Positions 27,941 through 39,168 of a stretch of DNA of 64,000 bases are shown here, in pieces (positions within the stretch are counted from its first letter, which is position 1; each line of letters starts with the position of its first letter). The stretch is from the NCBI GenBank assembly GCA_022842945.1, contig JALHOO010000001.1, positions 93,830 to 157,829 on the forward strand. Reading direction: 5' to 3'. The position numbers and the translations under genes are program-made. The notes below the pieces were generated by a model that was not told where the DNA came from, did no database searches, and saw only the letters and a program-made list of their open reading frames with translations. The stretch comes from Minisyncoccota bacterium (lineage in GTDB: Bacteria > Patescibacteriota > Minisyncoccia > Phycocordibacterales > Phycocordibacteraceae).

Positions 27941-29644
27941 ATGGATACCGTTGAACAGATAAAGGCGAAGCTCTCTATCCTTGAGGTAGTAGCACCCTAC
28001 GTGAAGCTCACGAAGTCAGGTCGCAACTATAAGGGGCTCTCTCCCTTCAATAAGGAGAAGACCCCATCGTTCTACGTGAACGTTGAGCGCGGTACCTACT
28101 ACTGCTTCTCCTCAAGCCAAGGCGGAGACCAGTTCCAGTTCATACAGCAGATGGAGGGCGTGGATTTCAAGGGAGCGCTCAAGATCCTCGCTGAGAAAGC
28201 AGGGGTTGAGATTGTGTATCAAGGGAGTGGCGAGTCAAAAGCAGACAAGGACAAGCGAGATCGTTTGTACGAAGCTATGGCGCGTGCAGAGGCGCTCTAC
28301 GCAGAAGCGCTTCTGCAAGGAAAGGGTATAGAGGGAAGTGCGTACTCCTACGCACTCTCCCGCGGGCTCACAGAGGAAACCATAAAGACCTGGAACCTCG
28401 GCTACGCACCTGATGCATGGCGCACGGTACTTGAGTCTCTCATGTCTGCCGGCTTTACGAATGCAGAACTGGTCCAGGCTGGACTCGTTAAGGAAGCGGA
28501 CGAGAAGAAGGGCACCTGGTACGACCGGTTCCGGAACCGCCTCATGTTCCCGATACGCGATTCGGCCGGACGCACCGTTGCCTTTACGGGTCGCGCTCTA
28601 GACTCTGCGGATCTCGCGAAGTATCTCAACTCTCCAGAGACTGACCTGTACAAGAAGTCAGAGATTCTCTTTGGCATGGACAAGGCGAAGGATGCGATAC
28701 GTCAGAGAGGATTCGCACTTCTTGTTGAGGGACAGATGGATCTTTTGCATTTGCATCAGATAGGGTTCCAGAATACCGTTGCGCTCTCCGGTACTGCGCT
28801 TACGCCCCAGCACCTTTCCTTAATGAAGCGGTACGCAGACAACGTGATGCTTGCGCTCGACTCAGACCGTGCGGGCCTTAACGCATCTATGAAGAGCGCC
28901 ATAGCGGCTCTTCGGGCTGGCATGCGTGTGAAGGCAGTACACCTTCCGCCAGGGAAGGATCCGGCAGACCTCGCTCTTGAGGACCCCAAGGGTTTAACTA
29001 CTCGCATCAAGGACGCTACGCCTATCGTTGAGTTCTTCCTGTCGGTGCTCGCAGAGAACGAGAAGGACTCGCACCGTCTCGTTATCCTCGTTGAGAAGAC
29101 CGTCCTTCCGCTCATAAGTGCCATACAGAGCCCAATGGAGCAGGAGCATTTCGTAGGAGTTGCTGCACGTTCTCTTGGATCAACCCCCGAAGCTATCCGG
29201 GCTGGACTTAACCGCCTTCCAAAGGAAGGGCAGGCGGAGAGGGCTCCTGAGACACCCTTTAAGCCTCAAGTGCGGGTTGAGGTACCCCTTAAAGCCAGCG
29301 AGCGGCACGAGCTTAATTTGAGGGCTGTAGCGGCCTGTTATGCGGGCTCTTCCCTTGCGGCACGGCTTGAAAGTGAGTATAATCGCATTATCGGCGTACC
29401 GTTCCCGGATGTGCCCCCTCCCGAAGACATGATCTTCGAGGCAGGAATAGCTTTTGGCGAGGCCCCCGGAGAAACAGACGCGGACGATCTCATCGTCGCA
29501 TTCGAGAAGGCACTTTTAGCGGAGCAGCTCCAGGCTGCTACCGCTCGCTTGCGCGTTGCAGAGGCGTCCCGCGACGAGACCTCAATCAAAGAGATAGGAC
29601 AGGAGTGCGAAGAACTCCGCAAGAAACTCGCTACCTTTTCATAG
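27941..29644 (+). CDS. dnaG: DNA primase
   Basis: Zinc-ribbon region (CFSSSQGGD), TOPRIM domain (EGQMDLL...DSDRAG) and dnaG-rpoD synteny. Confidence 0.93.
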   Translation: MDTVEQIKAKLSILEVVAPYVKLTKSGRNYKGLSPFNKEKTPSFYVNVERGTYYCFSSSQGGDQFQFIQQMEGVDFKGALKILAEKAGVEIVYQGSGESKADKDKRDRLYEAMARAEALYAEALLQGKGIEGSAYSYALSRGLTEETIKTWNLGYAPDAWRTVLESLMSAGFTNAELVQAGLVKEADEKKGTWYDRFRNRLMFPIRDSAGRTVAFTGRALDSADLAKYLNSPETDLYKKSEILFGMDKAKDAIRQRGFALLVEGQMDLLHLHQIGFQNTVALSGTALTPQHLSLMKRYADNVMLALDSDRAGLNASMKSAIAALRAGMRVKAVHLPPGKDPADLALEDPKGLTTRIKDATPIVEFFLSVLAENEKDSHRLVILVEKTVLPLISAIQSPMEQEHFVGVAARSLGSTPEAIRAGLNRLPKEGQAERAPETPFKPQVRVEVPLKASERHELNLRAVAACYAGSSLAARLESEYNRIIGVPFPDVPPPEDMIFEAGIAFGEAPGETDADDLIVAFEKALLAEQLQAATARLRVAEASRDETSIKEIGQECEELRKKLATFS

Positions 29645-29659
29645 CATTCGATTACTCGT

Positions 29660-30961
29660 TTGAACTCTACTCACATGGCAACCTCAAAGAAGCCAGCCAA
29701 GAAGGCTGTTGTTAAAAAAGCAGTGAAGAAGGCCGCCCCAAAGAAGGTGGTTAAAAAGGCTGTGAAGAAAGTCGCAAAGAAAGCCGCACCTAAGAAGGTG
29801 GTGAAGAAAGTGGCTGCCGCTAAGAAGCCTGCAAAGAAGGTGCTTCTTAAGAACATTGTGCGTGTTGCGGCAACGGGTGCTAAGGCGAAAGCTGCTGCAC
29901 AGAAGATGGACAAGGGCGACATGCTCATCCAGAAGGGAAAGGAGCGCGGATACATCACCTACTCTGAGATCCTTAAGGAGTTCCCGCATGTTGAGGACGA
30001 CATCATGTTCCTCGACGAGCTCTACGAGAAGTTCACCACCGCAGGCATCGACATTCTTGAGGGGGGTATGCTCGCAGACGATACGGACCAGTACCTGGCC
30101 ACCCGCAACATAAAGAGTCGTGACTCTGGTGCATACGACTCCATCCAGATCTACCTTCGCGAGATTGGACAGTACCCGCTTCTAACAGCGTCTGAAGAGC
30201 GCGAGCTCGCCCAGCGCATTGAGCGCGGGGACGACGAAGCGCGCAACATTCTTGCTCGCTCGAACCTTCGTCTCGTTGTGTCTATTGCAAAGAAGTACGT
30301 AGGACGCTCTCCGGACCTAACCCTCCTCGACCTTATCCAGGAAGGAAACCTTGGTCTCTTCAAGGCCGTAGACAAGTTCGACTGGAACAAGGGATTTAAG
30401 TTCTCAACCTACGCTACGTGGTGGATTCGCCAGGCTATAACCCGCGCGCTCGCAGACCAGTCTCGTACCATCCGCATCCCGGTGCACATGGTTGAAACTA
30501 TCGCGAAGTACAAGCAGGTATCCCGCCGCCTCGCTCAGGTGCTCGGACGCGATCCGCAGCCTGAGGAGATAGCTATTGAGATGGGTGTGGAGGTAGACAA
30601 GATCTACCAGATTGAGAAGATCAATCAGGACACGCTCTCTCTTGAGAATCCTATTGGTTCCGATGACGACCAGAACTCAACGCTCGGCGACTTCATCGCG
30701 GACGACAAGATTCCTTCTCCAATCCAGGAGTCTTCGGAGCGTATTCTTGGAGAGCAGGTGCGCGACATTCTTGAAGACCTCTCTCCAAAGGAGCGCAAGA
30801 TTCTTGAGATGCGCCATGGACTCCTAGACGGTGTGTACCACACGCTTGAAGAGGTTGGGAAGGAGTTTGGGGTTACGCGTGAGCGTATCCGCCAGATTGA
30901 GGCGAAGGCGCTTGAGAAGATCAGGACGCATGAGAAGAGTAGGAGGTTGAAGTCCTATTAA
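29660..30961 (+). CDS. rpoD: RNA polymerase sigma-70 factor with a Lys/Ala-rich (histone H1-like) N-terminal repeat region
   Basis: Regions 1.2-4.2 are present (rpoD box [13 protein letters not shown]). The first ~75 aa are [11 protein letters not shown] repeats. Confidence 0.93.
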
Positions 30962-30962
30962 A

Positions 30963-31436
30963 ATGACAGAGAAGGCAAAGAGTACAAAAGAGCTGGAGAA
31001 GACCGTTGATGACGGTGCTTCGATAACCAGTGATTTGCCTGCCGATAAGACAGTTAATAGGTCTAGCTTTTCAAGTTGGAGTCGTGCGATACCGCCTGCA
31101 GAGCTAAAAAAGCCGGACGTAGCTCGTGCGATAGCGAAGATGCTTCTCATGCTCAATGATGACCTTCAACGTGATCTTGAGAAGGCCCATCCATTTGAGG
31201 CTAAATTCTATGAGGCCGATAAGCGTACAGAAGTGCTCAAGGAGAGAATACGTGGCCTGCAAAAATCGGTCGGTGTAAAGGTACTATTCTCCTCTGCGGG
31301 CTTTGGCCTCGTGGGCTTTTCACCGTTCCTTTGGGACAAATATGTTCCACTATTTATACTGGCCATAGCTTTAGGAATCGTACTCATTGTCGTCGGTTAC
31401 TTCATAAAGGATATAAGTGACAAATTCGAAAAGTAA
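30963..31436 (+). CDS. hypothetical protein with C-terminal double TM helix (157 aa)
   Basis: Soluble charged N-terminal region, then VLFSSAGFGLVGFSPFLW...LFILAIALGIVLIVVGYFI. Confidence 0.5.
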   Translation: MTEKAKSTKELEKTVDDGASITSDLPADKTVNRSSFSSWSRAIPPAELKKPDVARAIAKMLLMLNDDLQRDLEKAHPFEAKFYEADKRTEVLKERIRGLQKSVGVKVLFSSAGFGLVGFSPFLWDKYVPLFILAIALGIVLIVVGYFIKDISDKFEK

Positions 31437-31440
31437 ATCT

Positions 31441-31824
31441 ATGCAGATTGAAATTAAGAAAATTGTAGATAGAGATCTCCTGGAGCAAGAAAGAGCAGTT
31501 CTTGGTGTAGTTTCTGATACTTTCTTAGGAAATTTTGCGATATTCCAAACTCACTCAAACTCATCCGGAACTGTATCAACACAGATAAAAAGAACATATT
31601 GGTTTCCAGATCGGGATGTGAAGGCTGGCGATATAATTGTTATTTATACTAAGTCTGGGAAGAATAAAGTGCGTGACAATGACGATGGTACTCAGTCACA
31701 TTTCTTCTATCTTGGAAAGGATGCGCCAATTTGGAAAGACGATTCCTCAGCACTGGCAATAATTAATATCCTTGAGTGGGACTATAAAACGGCTGATGGA
31801 AAAGGAGGGAGAGAAAAGATTTAG
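31441..31824 (+). CDS. hypothetical protein (127 aa)
   Basis: ATG 4 nt after the upstream stop; low-GC codon usage shared with the island. An alternative GTG start lies at 31417. Confidence 0.45.
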   Translation: MQIEIKKIVDRDLLEQERAVLGVVSDTFLGNFAIFQTHSNSSGTVSTQIKRTYWFPDRDVKAGDIIVIYTKSGKNKVRDNDDGTQSHFFYLGKDAPIWKDDSSALAIINILEWDYKTADGKGGREKI

Positions 31825-31964
31825 ACCACATGGGCTATTTTTAGATTGGTATAAGAAACTTGTTAGTCACCCTTAAATAAGGTGGTCGATCACGCCTGCA
31901 TGGACCTTGCGATCTAACTGAGCAAAATCTAAGCCTTAAATACTGTATATATTCTTACAGTCGG

Positions 31965-31985
31965 GAAGTGGGGTAGAATACTGTG
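31965..31985 (+). promoter_or_regulatory. extended -10-like element (TGgggTAGAAT) upstream of the MmeI-family gene
   Basis: AT-rich 200-nt gap; TGnTAGAAT about 45 nt upstream of the ATG at 32031. Confidence 0.3.
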
Positions 31986-32030
31986 ACAAAGACTTAGTAG
32001 GAATGCTGCCAAAAAGACCCCAAGAAATTT

Positions 32031-34709
32031 ATGATCAATCTAGTAAGCCTACAGGAGGATCTTGAGAATCTCAGTCAGAAATTTTCAAAGCAAACGTTTG
32101 TCTTTGATTTGCTGTCCGTGTATGGACTGCCGAAAAGCACCATCTCTTTACTTTTCAAAAACCCCTCAAAGCTATCGGGAAAGGAAGATCAGATCATTTT
32201 AAAAAACAAGGTGCTTTTTCACATAACCAACTTAGAAGAAGACGAGCACGTCGCTATCGATACTCTACAAAAGGATAAGAACTCATATAAATTCAATCCT
32301 CGATTCATTATCGTTACGGACTTTGCAACATTCTTGGCTGTAGATACAAAAACAAAGGAGACTCTTGATATCCAGATTGGGGATCTCGGCAGACATTACG
32401 CATTTTTCTTGCCGTGGTGTGGCATGGAAAAATCACAGCATGTTAATGAGAACCCTGCTGATATTCGTGCTGCCTACAAAATGGACAAGTTGTATCAGGC
32501 AATTGTTAATGACGATCCAGAATACTATAAGAACAATAGTCACGATTTAAACATATTTCTATCACGGCTTCTTTTCTGTTTCTTCGCCGAAGATACCGGA
32601 ATCTTCCCGAAAGCAGGATTATTCACAAACTCAGTAATTTCTCATACTCATGAAAATGGTGAAGAGTTAGATGCACATTTCTCAACGCTGTTTGATCTGT
32701 TGAACACAAAAGATAGCGACCGGTCAAAGTTTGCATCTCACTTTTTGGAATTCCCATATGTAAATGGGGGTCTTTTTGAAGACAAGATTAAGTTACCTGC
32801 ATTTACTGCTAGTTCACGAAAACTGATTATTGAGTGTGGAAAATTGAATTGGGATTCAATCAATCCTGACATCTTCGGGTCTATGATCCAGGCTGTCGTT
32901 CATCCTGGACAGCGAGAGAATCTCGGAATGCACTACACCTCTGTGCCTAACATAATGAAGGTGATTGAACCGCTCTTTCTTAATGATTTGTACGAAGAAT
33001 TAGAAAGGTCGAAAAATGATCCAAAGAAATTAGAAAATCTTCGTGACAGAGTTTCCAAGATCAAGATATTTGATCCAGCCTGTGGATCAGGTAATTTCCT
33101 CATTATCTCGTACAAGGAGTTATCAAAACTAGAATCAAAAATAGTTGCTTACGCCAAAGCCATTGGGCATGACATGGTGCAGTACTCTGGTGTATCTCTA
33201 AACTCTTTCTACGGAATAGAGATAGATGACTTTGCTCATGAAATTGCCAGACTTTCACTTTGGCTAGCTCAACACCAAATGAACCAGTATTTCGATGGAA
33301 TGTTTGGAATTATGAAAGCAACACTCCCGCTTAAAGAAAGCGGAAAGATTGTTTGTGGTAATGCCACGAGAGTCGATTGGGAGGAGGTCTGTCCTCGTAA
33401 AGATAAGGTTGTAGGAGAACATGAAATATATGTAATTGGTAATCCTCCTTACTACGGGGCAAGAAAGCAAGATGACGAACAGAAAGAAGATATCAATAGA
33501 ATTTTTAAGGGGGTCAAGAATGCGAGCAATCTGGATTATATTTCCTGCTGGTTTCTTCTTGGCAAGAACTATATTCAAGGCACAAAGATCAAGCTGGCTT
33601 TTGTTTCAACAAATTCAATTTGCCAGGGCGAGCAGGTCTCTATTCTATGGCCACTAATTTTAAAAGACCAAATCGAAATAGGTTTCGCGTACCAGTCATT
33701 TAAATGGAAGAACAGTGCCAAGGGTAATGCCGGAGTCACTTGCGTTATTGTTGGATTAAGAGCTGAAGCAAAAAATCATAAATATATTTTTAGTGGTCAA
33801 ATTAAGATTTCAGCCAAAAATATATCACCGTATCTTGTAGATACTGATAATCTTTTTGTGCAAAAAAGAAGTAAACCGCTATCACAGATTCCAGAGATGT
33901 GCTTTGGAAGTATGCCTAATGATGGTGGATATCTTTTGATTGACCAGAATGAGTATGTAGAACTTAAAAGTAATAATCCTACTGTTCTTAGTTTTATAAA
34001 ACGATGCTACGGTGGCCAGGAATTTATCAAGGGAATTGTCAGGTATTGTATTTGGATCAGTGATAAAGAAGTTGACAGTGCTATGAAGATTGAATTTATT
34101 AAAAATAGAGTCGAGCTAGTTCAATCATATCGAAGTAAGAGTGACAGGGAAGCAACTAGAAAATTGTCTGCAAAGCCTTACAAATTTGGTGAGATTAGAC
34201 ACCTTGATACCAATTCAATCATTGTTCCTCGAGTTTCGTCCGAATTGCGTGATTACATTCCTGTAGGTTTTCTGACCAAGAACGATATCATCACTGATTC
34301 TGCCCAGGTTATATATAACGCCGAGCCTTATATTTTTGCTGTACTAAATTCACACATGCACATGACCTGGGTGCGTGCTGTTGGAGGAAAATTGAAGACT
34401 GACTTGAGGTACTCGTCCGCACTTTGTTACAACACCTTCCCATTTCCAGAGATTACCCCAAAGCAAAAGGACTCGCTTGCTACTCATGTCTATAATATTC
34501 TCGAAGAGCGCGAGAAATATCCCAATAAAACGATGGCAGACCTGTATGATCCAGTAAAGATGCCGGATAGCTTGAGGGAAGCTCATAAATATTTAGACCT
34601 CGCCATAGACCAAATATATCGAAACAAACCCTTTGAAAGTGATGAAGATCGGTTGGCTCATTTGTTCAAATTCTACGAAGAGATGATTACTAGAGAAACC
34701 AACGGATAA
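32031..34709 (+). CDS. MmeI-family (Type IIL / ISP-like) N6-adenine DNA methyltransferase with C-terminal target-recognition domain and an N-terminal nuclease-like domain of uncertain activity
   Basis: Motif I FDPACGSGNFLI and motif IV NPPY (VIGNPPYYG). MmeI-family signatures RLLFCFFAEDTGIF, FPYVNGGLF, HYTSVPNIMKVIEPLF, FVSTNSICQGEQVSILWPLIL, RYSSALCYNTFPF and the ADLYDP..MP..L..AH..LD C-terminal helix. Confidence 0.85.
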   Translation: MINLVSLQEDLENLSQKFSKQTFVFDLLSVYGLPKSTISLLFKNPSKLSGKEDQIILKNKVLFHITNLEEDEHVAIDTLQKDKNSYKFNPRFIIVTDFATFLAVDTKTKETLDIQIGDLGRHYAFFLPWCGMEKSQHVNENPADIRAAYKMDKLYQAIVNDDPEYYKNNSHDLNIFLSRLLFCFFAEDTGIFPKAGLFTNSVISHTHENGEELDAHFSTLFDLLNTKDSDRSKFASHFLEFPYVNGGLFEDKIKLPAFTASSRKLIIECGKLNWDSINPDIFGSMIQAVVHPGQRENLGMHYTSVPNIMKVIEPLFLNDLYEELERSKNDPKKLENLRDRVSKIKIFDPACGSGNFLIISYKELSKLESKIVAYAKAIGHDMVQYSGVSLNSFYGIEIDDFAHEIARLSLWLAQHQMNQYFDGMFGIMKATLPLKESGKIVCGNATRVDWEEVCPRKDKVVGEHEIYVIGNPPYYGARKQDDEQKEDINRIFKGVKNASNLDYISCWFLLGKNYIQGTKIKLAFVSTNSICQGEQVSILWPLILKDQIEIGFAYQSFKWKNSAKGNAGVTCVIVGLRAEAKNHKYIFSGQIKISAKNISPYLVDTDNLFVQKRSKPLSQIPEMCFGSMPNDGGYLLIDQNEYVELKSNNPTVLSFIKRCYGGQEFIKGIVRYCIWISDKEVDSAMKIEFIKNRVELVQSYRSKSDREATRKLSAKPYKFGEIRHLDTNSIIVPRVSSELRDYIPVGFLTKNDIITDSAQVIYNAEPYIFAVLNSHMHMTWVRAVGGKLKTDLRYSSALCYNTFPFPEITPKQKDSLATHVYNILEEREKYPNKTMADLYDPVKMPDSLREAHKYLDLAIDQIYRNKPFESDEDRLAHLFKFYEEMITRETNG

Positions 34710-34713
34710 TTTT

Positions 34714-36651
34714 ATGAAAACCATTCAAGTCGCCGAAGCAACATACGAACAGACGGGGCAAAGTACCAAGCTTAACGAGCTTGGTATGCGTGAAATGCAA
34801 GCCAAAGCATTCGAAAAAAAGGGTGCTCAGTACCTACTTTTGAAAGCCCCTCCAGCATCTGGAAAGTCCAGAGCATTGATGTTCCTTGCTTTAGATAAAC
34901 TTGCCAATCAAGGCATCAAAAAAGTCATTGTTGCCGTTCCCGAGAGATCTATCGGTGGATCTTTTAGTGAGACCAATCTAACTGAGAGTGGTTTCTTTGC
35001 AGATTGGAAACCAAATGATGACTACAACCTTTGTACTCCTGGTCTAGATAATGCAAAAGGCAAGGTCGAAGCGTTTAAGAATTTTGTGAATAACGATGAG
35101 AAGATCCTCATCTGCACTCATTCAACGCTTCGCTTCGCATGTGAACAAATTGAAGACTCAAAATTCAATGATATGCTCATTGCGATTGACGAATTCCATC
35201 ATGTGTCTGCTGACAAAGAGAGCAGCATTTTAGGGCGCGTTTTGCACGGAATAATGACTAATTCAAACGCGCATATTATTGCGATGACAGGGTCATACTT
35301 CAGGGGAGATGGTGTTGCTGTTCTGTTGCCACAGGATGAGGCAAAGTTTCAGAAAGTGACATACAACTACTACCAGCAGTTGAATGGCTACACCTATTTA
35401 AAGACCCTAGGTATCGGGTACCATTTTTACCAAGGCAGATACACATCAGCGATTACTGAGGTGTTGGATACAAACAAGAAGACGATTCTACATATTCCGA
35501 ACGTGAACTCCGGGGAGTCCACAAAGGATAAGCTCAATGAAGTCGATCTGATCTTGGATATCATCGGAGAAGTAGATCATCAGGATCATGAGACTGGTGT
35601 TATCTATGTAAGACGTGACGGAGACGGAAAGATGCTTAAGGTCGCAAACCTTGTCGACGATTCAGTCGATCGAGACAAGATATCAAACTACCTCCGTACC
35701 ATGAAAAACGAGGATGATATGGATATCATCATTGCTTTGGGTATGGCAAAAGAAGGTTTTGACTGGCCGTACTGCGAACATGCACTGACTGTCGGCTATC
35801 GAAGCTCTCTCACAGAGATCATCCAGATCATCGGCCGCTGCACCCGTGATAGTGCTAACAAGACTCATGCTCAGTTTACAAACCTCATCGCCCAGCCTGA
35901 CGCAAAGGACGGTGAGGTTAAGGTGTCCGTAAACAACATGCTGAAGGCGATTACCTGCTCTCTACTTATGGAGCAAGTCATGGCCCCGCACTACAACTTC
36001 AAGCCTCGATTCCCCAATGACGACAATTCTTTTACTCCGGGCGAGATTAAAGTAAATGGATTTAAGGCACCAAGCACCGAACGGGTGAGAGAAATCATTG
36101 AATCAGATATCAACGATCTCAAGGCATCTATTCTTCAGGACGACCAAATGATTAAGGCGTTGCCTGGAAATGTTGATCCTGAGGTAATAAACAAGGTGAT
36201 GATCCCAAAGATTATCCAAATGAAGTATCCAGATCTTAGCGATCTTGAGGTTGAGGAAGTCCGCCAGCATGTCGTTGTTGACTCTGTAATTAAGAACGGA
36301 GAAATTAAGATTGTAGGAGACAAGAAGTTTGTCAGAATGGCGGGGCAGTTTGTGAATATCGACGATCTTAATATTGATCTCATTGATAGCATCAACCCCT
36401 TCCAGGAAGCCTTTGAAATACTTTCAAAATCCGTGACAACGGGCATCCTCAAGGTCATTCAGGACACAATCGACTCTTCCCGAATCGAGATGACACCAGA
36501 GGAAGTTAAGATTCTATGGCCTAAGGCAAAAGAGTTTACAATCCAGACAGGTCGGAAGCCTGAAGTTACTTCGTCCGATCCGCTTGAGAAAAGGCTAGCC
36601 GAAGCGGTGCTCTATCTGAAGAAACTCAAGGCCGAGCAAATCCAAAATTAA
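34714..36651 (+). CDS. SF2 DExH-box helicase (restriction Res/HsdR-like ATPase core, no nuclease domain)
   Basis: Motif I APPASGKS, motif II DEFH, motif III TGS, motif VI QIIGRCTR. Located 4 nt after the methyltransferase stop. Confidence 0.8.
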   Translation: MKTIQVAEATYEQTGQSTKLNELGMREMQAKAFEKKGAQYLLLKAPPASGKSRALMFLALDKLANQGIKKVIVAVPERSIGGSFSETNLTESGFFADWKPNDDYNLCTPGLDNAKGKVEAFKNFVNNDEKILICTHSTLRFACEQIEDSKFNDMLIAIDEFHHVSADKESSILGRVLHGIMTNSNAHIIAMTGSYFRGDGVAVLLPQDEAKFQKVTYNYYQQLNGYTYLKTLGIGYHFYQGRYTSAITEVLDTNKKTILHIPNVNSGESTKDKLNEVDLILDIIGEVDHQDHETGVIYVRRDGDGKMLKVANLVDDSVDRDKISNYLRTMKNEDDMDIIIALGMAKEGFDWPYCEHALTVGYRSSLTEIIQIIGRCTRDSANKTHAQFTNLIAQPDAKDGEVKVSVNNMLKAITCSLLMEQVMAPHYNFKPRFPNDDNSFTPGEIKVNGFKAPSTERVREIIESDINDLKASILQDDQMIKALPGNVDPEVINKVMIPKIIQMKYPDLSDLEVEEVRQHVVVDSVIKNGEIKIVGDKKFVRMAGQFVNIDDLNIDLIDSINPFQEAFEILSKSVTTGILKVIQDTIDSSRIEMTPEEVKILWPKAKEFTIQTGRKPEVTSSDPLEKRLAEAVLYLKKLKAEQIQN

Positions 36652-36652
36652 T

Positions 36653-37801
36653 ATGGATAGAAACGATTTACTAGATTTGCTAAATGATGACGACCTAGGA
36701 CTTCTCGATATAGAGAAGAAGTCTGTTTCCGTTACGCCAGATGATCGGCTATCAGAATCATTTATGGAAATAAATGAGTTTTTCTTGGCGCATAATAACG
36801 AACCAAAGAGTGGCGGAGATATCCATGAACACAAGCTTGCATCAAGACTTAAGCACATCAGAGAGAATAAAGAGCAAAGAGACTTCCTCAGTAAATACGA
36901 TACTCATAGTCTATTGAAGACTGATGCAAAGGATCTCGATACCGTAAGTGATATTTTTGCAGACGACGATTTGGATCTCCTTTCGCTTGAGGATAGTTCT
37001 GTTTTTAACATAAAGAACGTTCCAGAAATCAGACAAGATCGCTCCAACCCCGACTTCGTTGCACAGAGAGAGATTTGTACTGATTTCGATAAGTATGAGT
37101 ATCTGTTTGCACAGGTTCAAAGGGACCTAAAGAGCGGAACAAAGAAGCTGGCTAGCTTTGTTGAAAGTGAGATGAAAGAAGGCGACTTTTTTGTACTTAG
37201 TGGAGTGCTCATATATCTCGAAAAAATTGATGATCCATACCGAGGTAACAGTCAAAAAATAAACAGGCGAACTCGTTGTATTTATGAGAACGGGACTGAA
37301 TCAAGCGTGCTTCTTCGATCGCTTGGGAAAAGACTTTCTGATGCAGGGTATGCCATAAAGGGTAATTCAGAGATGGTGGCTATTGAAGATGGAGATTCTG
37401 AGACAGGCTATATCTATGTACTTAAGTCCCTAAGTGAGAATCCAAGGATCGCAACTACTAAAAACCTTTTCAAGATTGGTTTCTCAACTACTCGTGTCGA
37501 AGAGCGTATAAGGAACGCAGAACAGGACCCTACGTATCTAATGGCTCCAGTTTCTATTGTCGCTACTTACCGATGTTTCAACATGAATCCTCAGCGGTTC
37601 GAAAGGCTGATACACCGTTTCTTCAGTGAGTCATGTCTGGATCTTGAAATCACCGACAAGGATGGGAGAAGTTATGTTCCAAAGGAGTGGTTCGTAGCAC
37701 CAATAACGGTAATCGGAAATACCATCGAACTAATCATCAAGGGAGAGATCGTCAATTATTCTTATGACAAAGATACTGAGTCAATTGAAAAGATTAGATA
37801 A
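36653..37801 (+). CDS. protein with an acidic N-terminal tandem motif and a C-terminal T5orf172/GIY-YIG-superfamily nuclease-like domain
   Basis: GYIYVLKS...KIGFSTTRVEERIRN...ERLIHRFF...EWFVAP matches the T5orf172 (MUG113) pattern. DDDLGLLDIEKKSVSV and DDDLDLLSLEDSSVFN repeats. Begins 1 nt after the helicase stop. Confidence 0.7.
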   Translation: MDRNDLLDLLNDDDLGLLDIEKKSVSVTPDDRLSESFMEINEFFLAHNNEPKSGGDIHEHKLASRLKHIRENKEQRDFLSKYDTHSLLKTDAKDLDTVSDIFADDDLDLLSLEDSSVFNIKNVPEIRQDRSNPDFVAQREICTDFDKYEYLFAQVQRDLKSGTKKLASFVESEMKEGDFFVLSGVLIYLEKIDDPYRGNSQKINRRTRCIYENGTESSVLLRSLGKRLSDAGYAIKGNSEMVAIEDGDSETGYIYVLKSLSENPRIATTKNLFKIGFSTTRVEERIRNAEQDPTYLMAPVSIVATYRCFNMNPQRFERLIHRFFSESCLDLEITDKDGRSYVPKEWFVAPITVIGNTIELIIKGEIVNYSYDKDTESIEKIR

Positions 37802-37809
37802 TACTTCTC

Positions 37810-38259
37810 TCAAATAGGATTCACAATTTTATTGAAATGCCTAGACGGCACTGGTGTAACCGAAAGCCTCGACCCTTTTTGTAAAATCATCATCCCTAAA
37901 GAAGCATCGGCACGTATATCCGATAGGGTAACGGGCACATCAAACTTCTTTACGAACGCAATATCAACCAAGTCCCATATTGGCCTTGCTTCAGTTGCAC
38001 GCTTGTCGTAGTAGTCGCTCTTCGGATCAAACTGCGTTGGGTCTGGATACGCTTCCGTAACAACCTTTGCAATCCCATACACTCCAGGAACCTTGCAGTT
38101 GGAATGATAGAAGAGAACCTCGTCGCCAACCCGCATCTCACGCATATAGTTCCTCGCTTGAAAGTTCCGCACGCCATTCCATGACGTCTTTCTATCCTTC
38201 TTTAAATGGTCTATCCCGTAGCTCTCGGGCTCTGACTTCATAAGCCAATACTGCTTCAT
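37810..38259 (-). CDS. EVE (PUA-like/YTH-like) domain protein
   Basis: MKQYWLMKSEPESY...WNGVRNFQARNYMREMRVGDEVLFYHS is the canonical EVE N-terminus. Confidence 0.8.
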   Translation of the reverse strand: MKQYWLMKSEPESYGIDHLKKDRKTSWNGVRNFQARNYMREMRVGDEVLFYHSNCKVPGVYGIAKVVTEAYPDPTQFDPKSDYYDKRATEARPIWDLVDIAFVKKFDVPVTLSDIRADASLGMMILQKGSRLSVTPVPSRHFNKIVNPI

Positions 38260-38292
38260 TAGAAACAGTATATAGGATGCTAATCTTAAGGA

Positions 38293-39168
38293 ATGGAACC
38301 AACCCCCGCACCAAGCAAAGCCCCAAAACTCCTCACCCTATTCATCATAGTATTCAGTGCATCTCTCCTGGCTACGAGCACCATCGCTCTGGGCGCCTTC
38401 TCTCTTATGGGAGACACATTTGAAGGCGGTACTGCTGCAGAGTCCTGGGCACCCGCTGCAGGGTGCAATGTTGTGGGTATTGCGGTACATGGCGACATCT
38501 CCATAACACCCTATAGCTACTCCCCGGAAGAATGCGTTGAAGGATGCCCGTCAGGTACGTATTCCGATGATGTGATTCAGTATCTACAGGCAGCCCGGGA
38601 AGATGACTCAATCCTCGGTATACTCCTCGACGTTAGTTCCTACGGAGGAGAGCCAGTTGCCGCAGAAGAGATTGCTGAAGCCGTAAAGAATACTGAGAAG
38701 CCCTCTGTAGCATGGATACGTACGTCAGGGACGTCAGCTGCGTACTGGATAGCGAGCGCTGCCGATACCATTATTGCGTCAGCAAACTCGGATGTGGGTG
38801 GTATTGGTATAACCATGTCCTATCTTGATAACGTCACGGCAAATGAGGACCAGGGACTAACCTACAACAGTCTTTCTTCAGGAAAATACAAAGACGCGGG
38901 GAGCCCGGACAGAATACTCACCGAAGAGGAGGCTGAGATCTTTAAGCGAGATCTTGCAATCATGCATGCAAACTTCATCAAGGCAGTGTCCATACACCGT
39001 TCTCTACCGATCGAGCAGGTAACGGTTATTGCAGACGGTTCAAGCATGCTTGGAGAAATGGCCAAGGAAAATGGACTCGTAGATAGTATTGGAGGCCAGA
39101 AAGAAGCATACGAGACACTCGCAGCAAAGATAGGCGAGGAGCCGGTGATTTGCTGGGGAGGTCTATAG
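38293..39168 (+). CDS. sppA: signal peptide peptidase SppA (36K type), with N-terminal signal/TM
   Basis: ClpP/crotonase-fold S49 peptidase motifs (GGEPVAAEE...SGTSAAYWIASA...SIGGQ). Confidence 0.8.
   Translation: MEPTPAPSKAPKLLTLFIIVFSASLLATSTIALGAFSLMGDTFEGGTAAESWAPAAGCNVVGIAVHGDISITPYSYSPEECVEGCPSGTYSDDVIQYLQAAREDDSILGILLDVSSYGGEPVAAEEIAEAVKNTEKPSVAWIRTSGTSAAYWIASAADTIIASANSDVGGIGITMSYLDNVTANEDQGLTYNSLSSGKYKDAGSPDRILTEEEAEIFKRDLAIMHANFIKAVSIHRSLPIEQVTVIADGSSMLGEMAKENGLVDSIGGQKEAYETLAAKIGEEPVICWGGL

What the first reader, a model, noticed from the sequence alone, without database searches (positions are those of the whole stretch)
32031..32500. N-terminal nuclease-like domain of the MmeI-family protein may be catalytically degenerate
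In MmeI the N-terminal PD-(D/E)xK-like domain carries D70, E80 and K82, and is responsible for cleavage. Here the equivalent region (…KEDQIILKNKVLFHITNLEEDEH…RFIIVTDFATFLAVDTKTKE) conserves the downstream VLVCDF / TD…TKE block, but I cannot place an E-x-K triad at the expected register.

If the domain is inactive, the protein is a modification and specificity subunit only, and cleavage would have to be supplied in trans. That matches the presence of the downstream T5orf172 nuclease gene.
Basis: inference. Interest (0 to 1): 0.55.

Follow-up and report, generated by a model that had tools for sequence, protein, structure and literature searches.

The report
MmeI-like methylase with dead nuclease domain

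Summary
Observation confirmed. The 892-aa protein at 32031-34709 has the full MmeI architecture, and its N-terminal domain is homologous to MmeI's nuclease domain (hhalign 98.9%, E 2e-16). Four independent alignments put Q54, H64 and T66 where MmeI has the catalytic D70, E80 and K82. All 121 MmeI-type sequences sampled keep D/E/K. None of the 116 close homologues, 77 species-level relatives or 128 database-wide representatives has E-x-K at that register.

Morgan et al. 2009 (PMC2731913) described this second set of MmeI homologues (YeeA of B. subtilis). It lacks the PD-ExK motif, shows no endonuclease activity alone, and is always flanked by a DEAD-type helicase (YeeB) and a GIY-YIG-like protein (YeeC). 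The trio here is tightly packed, and the same gene order recurs in 65-73 of 80 related genomes.

I add two points. The degenerate domain is well conserved, and it co-varies with the helicase more than any other part of the methylase (rho 0.83), which fits a docking or coupling role. The proposed 5HR4 superposition is impossible because that domain is disordered in 5HR4. The locus sits in a low-GC island in a Patescibacteria genome. Cleavage remains unproven.

The parts
32031..34709 (+). MmeI-family (YeeA/DnmA-type) DNA methyltransferase and specificity protein, 892 aa
   Evidence: Pfam MmeI_N, MmeI_hel, MmeI_Mtase, MmeI_TRD and MmeI_C. phmmer against MmeI 5HR4: E 3.5e-186 over residues 89-886.
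32031..32525 (+). N-terminal domain (residues 1-165): degenerate homologue of the MmeI PD-(D/E)xK nuclease domain
   Evidence: hhalign 98.9%, E 2e-16. hmmsearch of the clade profile hits only MmeI 26-177, E 3e-10. AF2 pLDDT 80.9, with the same order of helices and strands as an MmeI-type control.
32190..32192 (+). Codon Q54, at the position of MmeI D70
   Evidence: HMMER alignments. Q in 97/116 close homologues. E/D in 66/77 wider relatives.
32220..32228 (+). Codons H64-I65-T66, at the position of MmeI E80-M81-K82
   Evidence: all agree. H in 91/116 and T in 95/116. No [DE]-x-K in 0/128 representatives.
32319..32351 (+). Clade-wide conserved D97...D105-T-K107 on the strand pair 92-96/100-105; role unknown
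   Evidence: D105 in 78/78 and 144/146. D97 (or N) and K107 (or R) nearly invariant. MmeI-type sequences keep only the first Asp, D115.
33069..33098 (+). SAM-binding motif I, FDPACGSGNF (residues 347-356)
   Evidence: Read from the translation. Invariant in alignment A1.
33441..33452 (+). Catalytic NPPY motif (residues 471-474) of the N6-adenine methyltransferase
   Evidence: N471, P472 and P473 are invariant and Y474 is at least 90% conserved in A1. The equivalent Y465 is needed for DnmA activity (PMC7261158).
34714..36651 (+). YeeB-type SF2 helicase/translocase, 645 aa
   Evidence: Pfam ResIII, DEAD and Helicase_C. PPASGKSRA, DEFHH, MTGS and QIIGRxTRD are at least 95% conserved in 66 relatives. 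50-74% identical across phyla.
36653..37801 (+). YeeC-type T5orf172 (GIY-YIG superfamily) protein, 382 aa; presumed nuclease
   Evidence: Pfam T5orf172 E 4e-12 and MUG113. RefSeq names a plasmid homologue 'GIY-YIG nuclease family protein'.
37406..37732 (+). T5orf172 domain (residues 252-360) with conserved G252, Y255, K274-I-G276, R285, N310, E316, H321 and E-W-F
   Evidence: Conservation over 57 relatives.
31000..38000 (.). Low-GC island (37-45% GC against about 54-57% on both sides) that carries the operon

Best explanation
This is a three-gene, YeeA/DnmA-YeeB-YeeC-type restriction-modification-like operon, acquired horizontally by a Patescibacteria (CPR) bacterium.

Shown here: the MmeI-like protein keeps an intact N6-adenine methyltransferase, target-recognition domain and helical spacer. 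Its N-terminal domain, although homologous to MmeI's PD-(D/E)xK nuclease, has Q54/H64/T66 in place of D70/E80/K82, so it cannot cut DNA by the MmeI chemistry.

Inferred, following Morgan et al. 2009: the MmeI-like protein recognises an asymmetric site and methylates one strand of it. At unmethylated sites it engages the SF2 helicase, an ATP-driven translocase, and the T5orf172/GIY-YIG-like protein, which supplies cleavage in trans.

Inferred from conservation and co-variation: the degenerate N domain is retained as the docking or coupling module for the helicase (and nuclease) and is not a decaying remnant.
For: - Domain architecture.
- Register of the catalytic residues by four alignments.
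- D/E/K invariant in 121/121 MmeI-type sequences but absent from 116 + 77 + 128 relatives of the window protein.
- AF2 models of the window domain and of an MmeI-type control have the same order of secondary-structure elements, with H64 and T66 at the end of the second hairpin strand, where the control has E85 and K87.
- Operon packing with 4-bp and 1-bp gaps.
- M-helicase-T5orf172 synteny in 73 and 65 of 80 species-level loci from many phyla, and on plasmids.
- Helicase and T5orf172 motifs conserved.
- The N domain is 86% identical (median) among close homologues, more than the MTase (67%) or TRD (49%).
- N-domain distances track the helicase (rho 0.83) and T5orf172 (0.75) better than any other M domain. 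Partial rho given the MTase domain is 0.74 for N, against 0.44 (spacer), 0.25 (C) and 0.00 (TRD). In bootstrap resampling over taxa, the difference between the N domain's rho with the helicase and that of the spacer, MTase or C domain stayed above zero in at least 99.8% of replicates.
- Literature: YeeA and MslORFHP lack endonuclease activity alone and are always flanked by YeeB and YeeC homologues (PMC2731913). DnmA methylates GACGAG on one strand (PMC7261158). yeeAB is needed for resistance to some phages in V. crassostreae (10.1101/2021.05.05.442762). A T5orf172 protein (ICP1 Gp88) belongs to the GIY-YIG superfamily and acts as an origin-directed nuclease (PMC8263062).
Against: - No member has been shown to cleave DNA, and no physical M-helicase-nuclease complex has been shown.
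- B. subtilis dnmA-yeeB-yeeC gives no restriction of plasmid uptake and no defence against three phages (PMC7261158, PMC9973331).
- Foldseek gives no significant PDB match for the N domain, so the fold assignment rests on profile alignments. The bona fide MmeI-type control also gave none.
- Mirror-tree correlations can be inflated by shared phylogeny and by differences in evolutionary rate between domains.
- The recognition sequence and activity of this particular copy are unknown.
Confidence: 0.75

Rival explanations
1. Relic system. The operon no longer restricts anything, and the methylase works as an orphan, epigenetic methyltransferase, as concluded for B. subtilis DnmA.
For: In B. subtilis, deleting dnmA, yeeB or yeeC affects neither plasmid transformation nor infection by three phages (PMC7261158; PMC9973331). 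Nothing here tests the activity of this copy.
Against: All three ORFs are intact and tightly packed. The helicase ATPase motifs, the T5orf172 motifs and NPPY/motif I are conserved. The trio is kept in the same order across many phyla and on 308 plasmids. Homologues in V. crassostreae are required for phage resistance. The locus lies in a low-GC island, which points to horizontal acquisition.
Confidence: 0.15
2. The N domain is still a nuclease (or nickase) that uses a non-canonical or relocated active site, for example the clade-invariant D97...D105-x-K107, possibly only when the helicase activates it.
For: D105 is invariant (78/78 and 144/146). D97 (or N) and K107 (or R) are nearly invariant, and position 54 is acidic in most wider relatives. 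The domain is under strong constraint.
Against: YeeA and MslORFHP showed no endonuclease activity when expressed alone (PMC2731913). In the AF2 strand pairing (92-96 with 100-105), D97 lies next to the hairpin turn and D105/K107 at the far end, unlike the PD...ExK geometry (inference; no coordinates available). The first Asp (D115) is also invariant in true MmeI enzymes, where it is not one of the three assigned catalytic residues (D70, E80, K82). The window's own subclade has Q, not E/D, at position 54. A dedicated nuclease-family gene is always present.
Confidence: 0.07
3. An ordinary bifunctional Type IIG/IIL restriction enzyme-methyltransferase like MmeI, as automatic annotation suggests; the neighbouring helicase and T5orf172 genes are unrelated.
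For: PADLOC model REase_MTase_IIG (PDLC03598) matches end to end with 1030 bits. Pfam MmeI_N matches.
Against: All three catalytic residues are replaced. True MmeI-type sequences never vary them (121/121). The neighbours are conserved partners in 65-73 of 80 loci. Morgan et al. found no conserved flanking genes for the motif-bearing enzymes (PMC2731913).
Confidence: 0.03

Closest known systems
YeeA (DnmA)-YeeB-YeeC of Bacillus subtilis and the 'second set' of MmeI homologues (Morgan et al. 2009, PMC2731913; Nye et al. 2020, PMC7261158; PMC9973331)
   Same: MmeI-like methylase similar to MmeI everywhere except the N-terminal ~100 residues. No PD-ExK motif. Followed by a DEAD-type helicase and a GIY-YIG/T5orf172 protein in the same order. 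Lies in a low-GC, horizontally acquired region.
   Different: The host is a Patescibacteria (CPR) bacterium. The window's subclade has Q54/H64/T66, where most relatives have E54/K64/variable. I did not compare it directly with the B. subtilis sequences because they were not available in the tools; the relatives compared include Bacillus, Moraxella and Vibrio species at 46-48% identity.
MmeI and the Type IIL/IIG enzymes (MmeI 5HR4, DrdV 7LO5, BpuSI)
   Same: Same five-domain architecture. About 40% identity over residues 89-886. The N domain is homologous (E 2e-16).
   Different: MmeI cuts with its own D70/E80/K82 site and has no conserved partner genes. Here all three residues are replaced, and helicase and nuclease genes follow.
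Type I, Type III and Type ISP ATP-dependent restriction-modification systems
   Same: Specificity and methylation are combined with an SF2 ATPase/translocase and a nuclease. Cleavage is expected to depend on the methylase component.
   Different: There is no HsdS subunit. The TRD is fused as in MmeI. The nuclease is a separate T5orf172/GIY-YIG-type protein, not a PD-(D/E)xK domain fused to the motor. Single-strand methylation is expected.
BREX PglX/BrxX and DISARM DrmMI methyltransferases
   Same: MmeI-related methyltransferases that mark self DNA within multi-gene defence systems and have no nuclease activity of their own. Weak PADLOC and NCBIfam matches over the MTase core.
   Different: The matches are far below family cut-offs (37.6 bits against 500). 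None of the other BREX or DISARM genes is present.

Membership tests
YeeA/DnmA-type MmeI homologues (three-gene YeeABC-type system) | Similarity to MmeI throughout the spacer, MTase, TRD and C-terminal domains | tested here: met
   phmmer against MmeI: E 3.5e-186 over residues 89-886. All five Pfam MmeI domains found.
YeeA/DnmA-type MmeI homologues (three-gene YeeABC-type system) | No PD-ExK motif aligned with MmeI D70/E80/K82 | tested here: met
   Q54/H64/T66 at those positions by four alignments.
YeeA/DnmA-type MmeI homologues (three-gene YeeABC-type system) | Immediately followed by a YeeB-like DEAD-type helicase and a YeeC-like GIY-YIG/T5orf172 protein | tested here: met
   ORFs 34714-36651 and 36653-37801. 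Same order in 73 and 65 of 80 related loci. A plasmid homologue is annotated the same way.
YeeA/DnmA-type MmeI homologues (three-gene YeeABC-type system) | Direct sequence relationship to B. subtilis YeeA, YeeB and YeeC | not tested
Relatives in Bacillus mediterraneensis (L069), Bacillus sp. BD59S (H1), Moraxella (L049) and Vibrio (L067) are 46-48% identical with the same synteny.
YeeA/DnmA-type MmeI homologues (three-gene YeeABC-type system) | No endonuclease activity of the methylase alone; single-strand m6A methylation of an asymmetric site | not testable with these tools
   Biochemical property, shown for YeeA and MslORFHP (PMC2731913) and for DnmA (PMC7261158).
MmeI family proper (Type IIL bifunctional restriction-modification enzymes) | Conserved PD-(D/E)xK residues D70, E80 and K82 in the N-terminal domain | tested here: not met
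   Invariant in 121/121 MmeI-type sequences. Replaced by Q/H/T here.
MmeI family proper (Type IIL bifunctional restriction-modification enzymes) | Stand-alone gene with no conserved partner genes | tested here: not met
   Conserved helicase and T5orf172 partners.
BREX (PglX) / DISARM (DrmMI) | Score above the family cut-off, and the other system genes present | tested here: not met
   NCBIfam BREX_1_MTaseX scores 37.6 bits against a cut-off of 500. PADLOC matches are confined to the MTase core or the C-terminal region. Pfam scans of nine ORFs across 27941-39168 found no BREX or DISARM gene.
GIY-YIG superfamily / T5orf172 (third gene) | T5orf172 domain with conserved G-x-x-Y, K-I-G, Arg, Glu and E-W-F residues | tested here: met
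   Pfam T5orf172 46.9 bits (cut-off 20). G252, Y255, K274-I-G276, R285, E316, H321 and EWF are at least 95% conserved in 57 relatives. Nuclease activity itself was not tested.

The most novel reading that the evidence does not exclude
The degenerate PD-(D/E)xK domain is more than a dead scaffold. It may be a repurposed module whose clade-invariant D97...D105-x-K107 residues form a second, helicase-dependent catalytic or sensing centre. In that case the methylase subunit would itself take part in strand cleavage or in triggering, and would not only dock the helicase and the T5orf172 nuclease.
Probability: 0.07. Interest if true: 0.55.

Novelty: new member of a known kind. Interest (0 to 1): 0.2.

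Why it matters
For this locus, very little. It is a typical member of a class whose loss of the nuclease motif, and whose helicase and GIY-YIG partners, were reported in 2009.

Three practical points are worth keeping.
- Automatic defence-system annotation (PADLOC REase_MTase_IIG, 1030 bits) would call this protein a bifunctional restriction enzyme, which the catalytic positions contradict.
- The class is widespread: many phyla, 308 plasmid records, and 417 representative clusters. It still has no solved structure for the helicase or nuclease, no demonstrated cleavage mechanism, and conflicting phenotypes (none in B. subtilis, defence in Vibrio). It therefore remains an open mechanistic problem, and the N-domain/helicase co-variation found here gives a concrete interface hypothesis to test.
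- It is an example of a horizontally acquired restriction-like island in a small CPR genome.

Tried and rejected
- Foldseek of the AF2 model of residues 1-165 against the PDB: no match with E <= 0.001, only weak HisRS-like hits.
- Positive control with a bona fide MmeI-type N domain (P0121): equally uninformative. The top hit was DrdV 7LO5 at E 0.03, followed by the same HisRS-like hits. Foldseek therefore cannot decide the fold here. I used the strand register from DSSP instead.
- phmmer of the helicase and the T5orf172 protein against PDB sequences: no hits.
- NCBIfam: no specific family for any of the three proteins.
- Sporadic [DE]-x-K matches 1-2 residues off register in 10 of 77 relatives: inconsistent positions, so I treated them as chance.
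- EVE-domain gene next to the operon as a fourth component: rejected, because it is found near the system in only 1 of 80 related loci.
- The two small ORFs upstream: no relatives in the related loci.
- Promoter and terminator scan of the operon: nothing above the shuffled expectation.
- Literature searches for a newer name or a solved mechanism for the system: none found.
- My first hmmalign read-out had an off-by-one index error caused by trimming. It is corrected.
Full report
**What is at the coordinates**

Window 32031-32500 is the first 157 codons of an 892-aa ORF (32031-34709, + strand). Pfam finds all five MmeI domains: MmeI_N (residues 16-160, E 1e-22), MmeI_hel, MmeI_Mtase (E 2e-108), MmeI_TRD and MmeI_C.

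A 645-aa SF2 helicase follows after a 4-bp gap (34714-36651; ResIII, DEAD, Helicase_C). A 382-aa T5orf172/MUG113 protein follows after a 1-bp gap (36653-37801).

**Checking the observation**

phmmer against the MmeI sequence of PDB 5HR4 aligns only residues 89-886 with MmeI 107-903 (E 3.5e-186). The catalytic region (MmeI D70, E80, K82) therefore falls in the part a simple search does not align.

I confirmed the MmeI N-terminal sequence against the PDB copy. I then collected 116 full-length close homologues of the window protein and 120 MmeI-type N-termini.

Four alignments give the same register:
- MAFFT with MmeI.
- hhalign of the two groups: probability 98.9%, E 2e-16, 155 columns.
- hmmsearch of a 26-sequence, multi-phylum profile of the window's clade against every PDB sequence. 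The only significant hit is MmeI residues 26-177, E 3e-10.
- hmmalign of MmeI onto the clade HMM.

All four place MmeI E80 on H64 and K82 on T66. The two HMMER alignments place D70 on Q54, with an ungapped hairpin and the same 10- and 12-residue spacing. hhalign shifts D70 to I56, and MAFFT puts it in a gap beside D53/Q54. None of these options restores an E-x-K.

Conservation at these positions:

| Set | Position 54 (D70) | Position 64 (E80) | Position 66 (K82) |
|---|---|---|---|
| MmeI-type sequences (121) | D in 121 | E in 121 | K in 121 |
| Close homologues of the window protein (116) | Q in 97 | H in 91 | T in 95 |
| Species-level relatives from GTDB genomes (77) | E/D in 66 | K/R in 68 | variable |

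Among the best hits of an exhaustive phmmer search of 1.84 billion representatives (417 hits at E <= 1e-3), none of the 128 that cover the columns has [D/E]-x-K at positions 64/66.

**Structure**

Residues 1-155 of MmeI are disordered in that crystal (PMC4833311).

An AF2 model of residues 1-165 has pLDDT 80.9 and pTM 0.65. Its elements are H4-16, H23-30, H35-43, E54-57, E61-65, H72-81, H83-86, E92-96, E100-105, E111-115, H116-130 and H142-161.

A control model of a bona fide MmeI-type N domain (P0121, 75% identical to MmeI) has pLDDT 83.9. It shows the same order of elements, with D75 just before the first hairpin strand (76-78) and E85/K87 at the end of the second (82-86). In the window protein the equivalent places are Q54 and H64/T66.

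Foldseek against the PDB gave no significant match for either model. Both returned the same weak HisRS-like hits, and the control's best hit was the Type IIL enzyme DrdV (7LO5) at E 0.03. The fold comparison is therefore uninformative and not contradictory. Homology rests on the profile alignments.

**The domain is degenerate but not decaying**

| Domain of the methylase | Median identity to window protein, 115 close homologues | Median identity to window protein, 72 species-level loci |
|---|---|---|
| N (1-165) | 86% | 38% |
| Spacer (166-320) | 88% | 58% |
| MTase (321-600) | 67% | 55% |
| TRD (601-808) | 49% | 45% |
| C (809-892) | 82% | 51% |

Across the wider clade the N domain is the most divergent part, but it keeps its own nearly invariant residues: F63, R91, T96, D97 (or N), D105 (78/78 and 144/146) and K107 (or R).

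Over 54 species-level loci that hold all three proteins, I compared pairwise distances:

| Domain of the methylase | Spearman rho vs helicase | Partial rho given MTase |
|---|---|---|
| N | 0.83 | 0.74 |
| Spacer | 0.66 | 0.44 |
| MTase | 0.64 | - |
| C | 0.58 | 0.25 |
| TRD | 0.12 | 0.00 |

The N domain's rho with the T5orf172 protein is 0.75. Bootstrapping over taxa keeps the N-domain advantage above zero in at least 99.8% of replicates. Shared phylogeny and rate differences can inflate such correlations. Even so, the contrast between domains of one protein fits a docking or coupling role for the N domain.

**The partners**

The helicase keeps PPASGKSRA (Walker A), DEFHH, MTGS and QIIGRxTRD at 95% or more across 66 relatives. 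It is the most conserved of the three proteins (50-74% identity).

The T5orf172 protein keeps G252, Y255, K274-I-G276, R285, N310, E316, H321 and E-W-F. T5orf172 belongs to the GIY-YIG superfamily, and one member (ICP1 Gp88) acts as an origin-directed nuclease (PMC8263062).

In the methylase, motif I (FDPACGSGNF) and NPPY are intact and conserved.

Of 80 related loci, 73 have the helicase and 65 the T5orf172 gene, downstream on the same strand and in the same order. Most misses are contig ends. Only L023, L034 and L074 lack them with sequence to spare.

On plasmids, 308 records carry a relative. In Bacillus sp. BD59S plasmid pBTBD59S1 the three genes are annotated DNA methyltransferase, DEAD/DEAH box helicase and GIY-YIG nuclease family protein.

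**What is already known**

Morgan et al. 2009 (PMC2731913) split MmeI homologues into two sets.
- One set has the PD-ExK residues and no conserved neighbours.
- The second set, typified by B. subtilis YeeA, lacks the motif and differs from MmeI in the first ~100 residues. It is 'invariably' flanked by a DEAD-type helicase (YeeB) and a GIY-YIG-motif protein (YeeC).

YeeA and MslORFHP showed no endonuclease activity. The authors proposed that the MmeI-like subunit supplies specificity and protective methylation, while a substituted N-terminal domain interacts with the separate helicase and endonuclease.

Later work:
- YeeA was renamed DnmA and shown to make m6A at GACGAG. No restriction was found in B. 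subtilis (PMC7261158).
- The synteny was confirmed across bacteria, with no defence against three phages (PMC9973331).
- In Vibrio crassostreae, inactivating yeeAB abolished resistance to one phage group (10.1101/2021.05.05.442762).
- I found no paper that solves the mechanism or gives the system another name.

**Setting**

The operon lies in a stretch of 37-45% GC (about 31.0-38.0 kb), between flanks of 54-57% GC and just downstream of dnaG-rpoD. The DnaG protein's best named relatives are from Patescibacteria/Paceibacterota, and the closest relatives of the methylase are also from that group. The island is therefore a horizontally acquired element in a CPR genome.

**Verdict**

The finding is a rediscovery of the YeeA/DnmA-YeeB-YeeC class, of which this is a new member.

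PADLOC's top label, Type IIG restriction enzyme-methyltransferase, is misleading for this protein.

Noticed in passing
window 31000-38000: A low-GC island (37-45% GC against 54-57% on both sides) holds the three-gene operon and two small ORFs of unknown function (30963-31436, 31417-31824). It lies directly downstream of dnaG-rpoD in a Patescibacteria-type genome.
   Followed up: partly
window 37810-38259 (-): A stand-alone EVE-domain protein (Pfam E 1.6e-56), convergent with the end of the operon at the right edge of the island. An EVE homologue lies near the system in only 1 of 80 related loci (L063), so it is probably not part of it.
   Followed up: partly
L073 10708-13656; L035 11747-12733; L044 2830-8683; L027 10725-15495; L005 10659-11558: In several relatives, other defence-type genes are inserted between the methylase and helicase genes: DUF4435 + AAA_21 ATPase, RhuM, SLFN_AlbA_2/HATPase_c_4, HTH_3 + Peptidase_M78, DUF4238, and large proteins with no Pfam match. 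This resembles cargo embedded inside Type I R-M operons.
   Followed up: partly
L023 3275-6034; L034; L074 and L077: A few YeeA-type methylase genes have no helicase or T5orf172 gene nearby. L023 is followed by a 919-aa AAA_23/AAA_21 protein. Actinotignum timonense has two copies, and only one (L077) has the partners.
   Followed up: no
window 32319-32351 (residues 97-107): A clade-wide invariant D97...D105-x-K107 sits on the second beta-hairpin of the degenerate domain. MmeI-type enzymes conserve only the first Asp (D115). Its role is unknown; it may be an interface or something else.
   Followed up: partly
window 32190-32228: The window's own subclade (mostly Patescibacteria) has Q54/H64/T66 plus invariant H73 and D77, whereas most relatives in other phyla have E54/K64/variable. 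The D70-equivalent acidic residue is usually kept in the class but is lost here.
   Followed up: partly
window 32031-34709, whole protein: Among close homologues the N domain, spacer and C-terminal bundle are 82-88% identical, but the MTase is 67% and the TRD 49%. TRD distances do not correlate with any other part (rho 0.07-0.18). This points to frequent swapping of the specificity module.
   Followed up: partly
window 36653-37000 (T5orf172 protein residues 1-115): The N-terminal part of the T5orf172 protein has two acidic D-D-L-x-L-L-like stretches (residues 5-19 and 101-111) that are partly conserved in relatives. They could be short docking motifs.
   Followed up: no
window 29660-30961: The RpoD homologue has a long lysine/alanine-rich N-terminal extension (AKKAVKK repeats) before region 1.1.
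   Followed up: no
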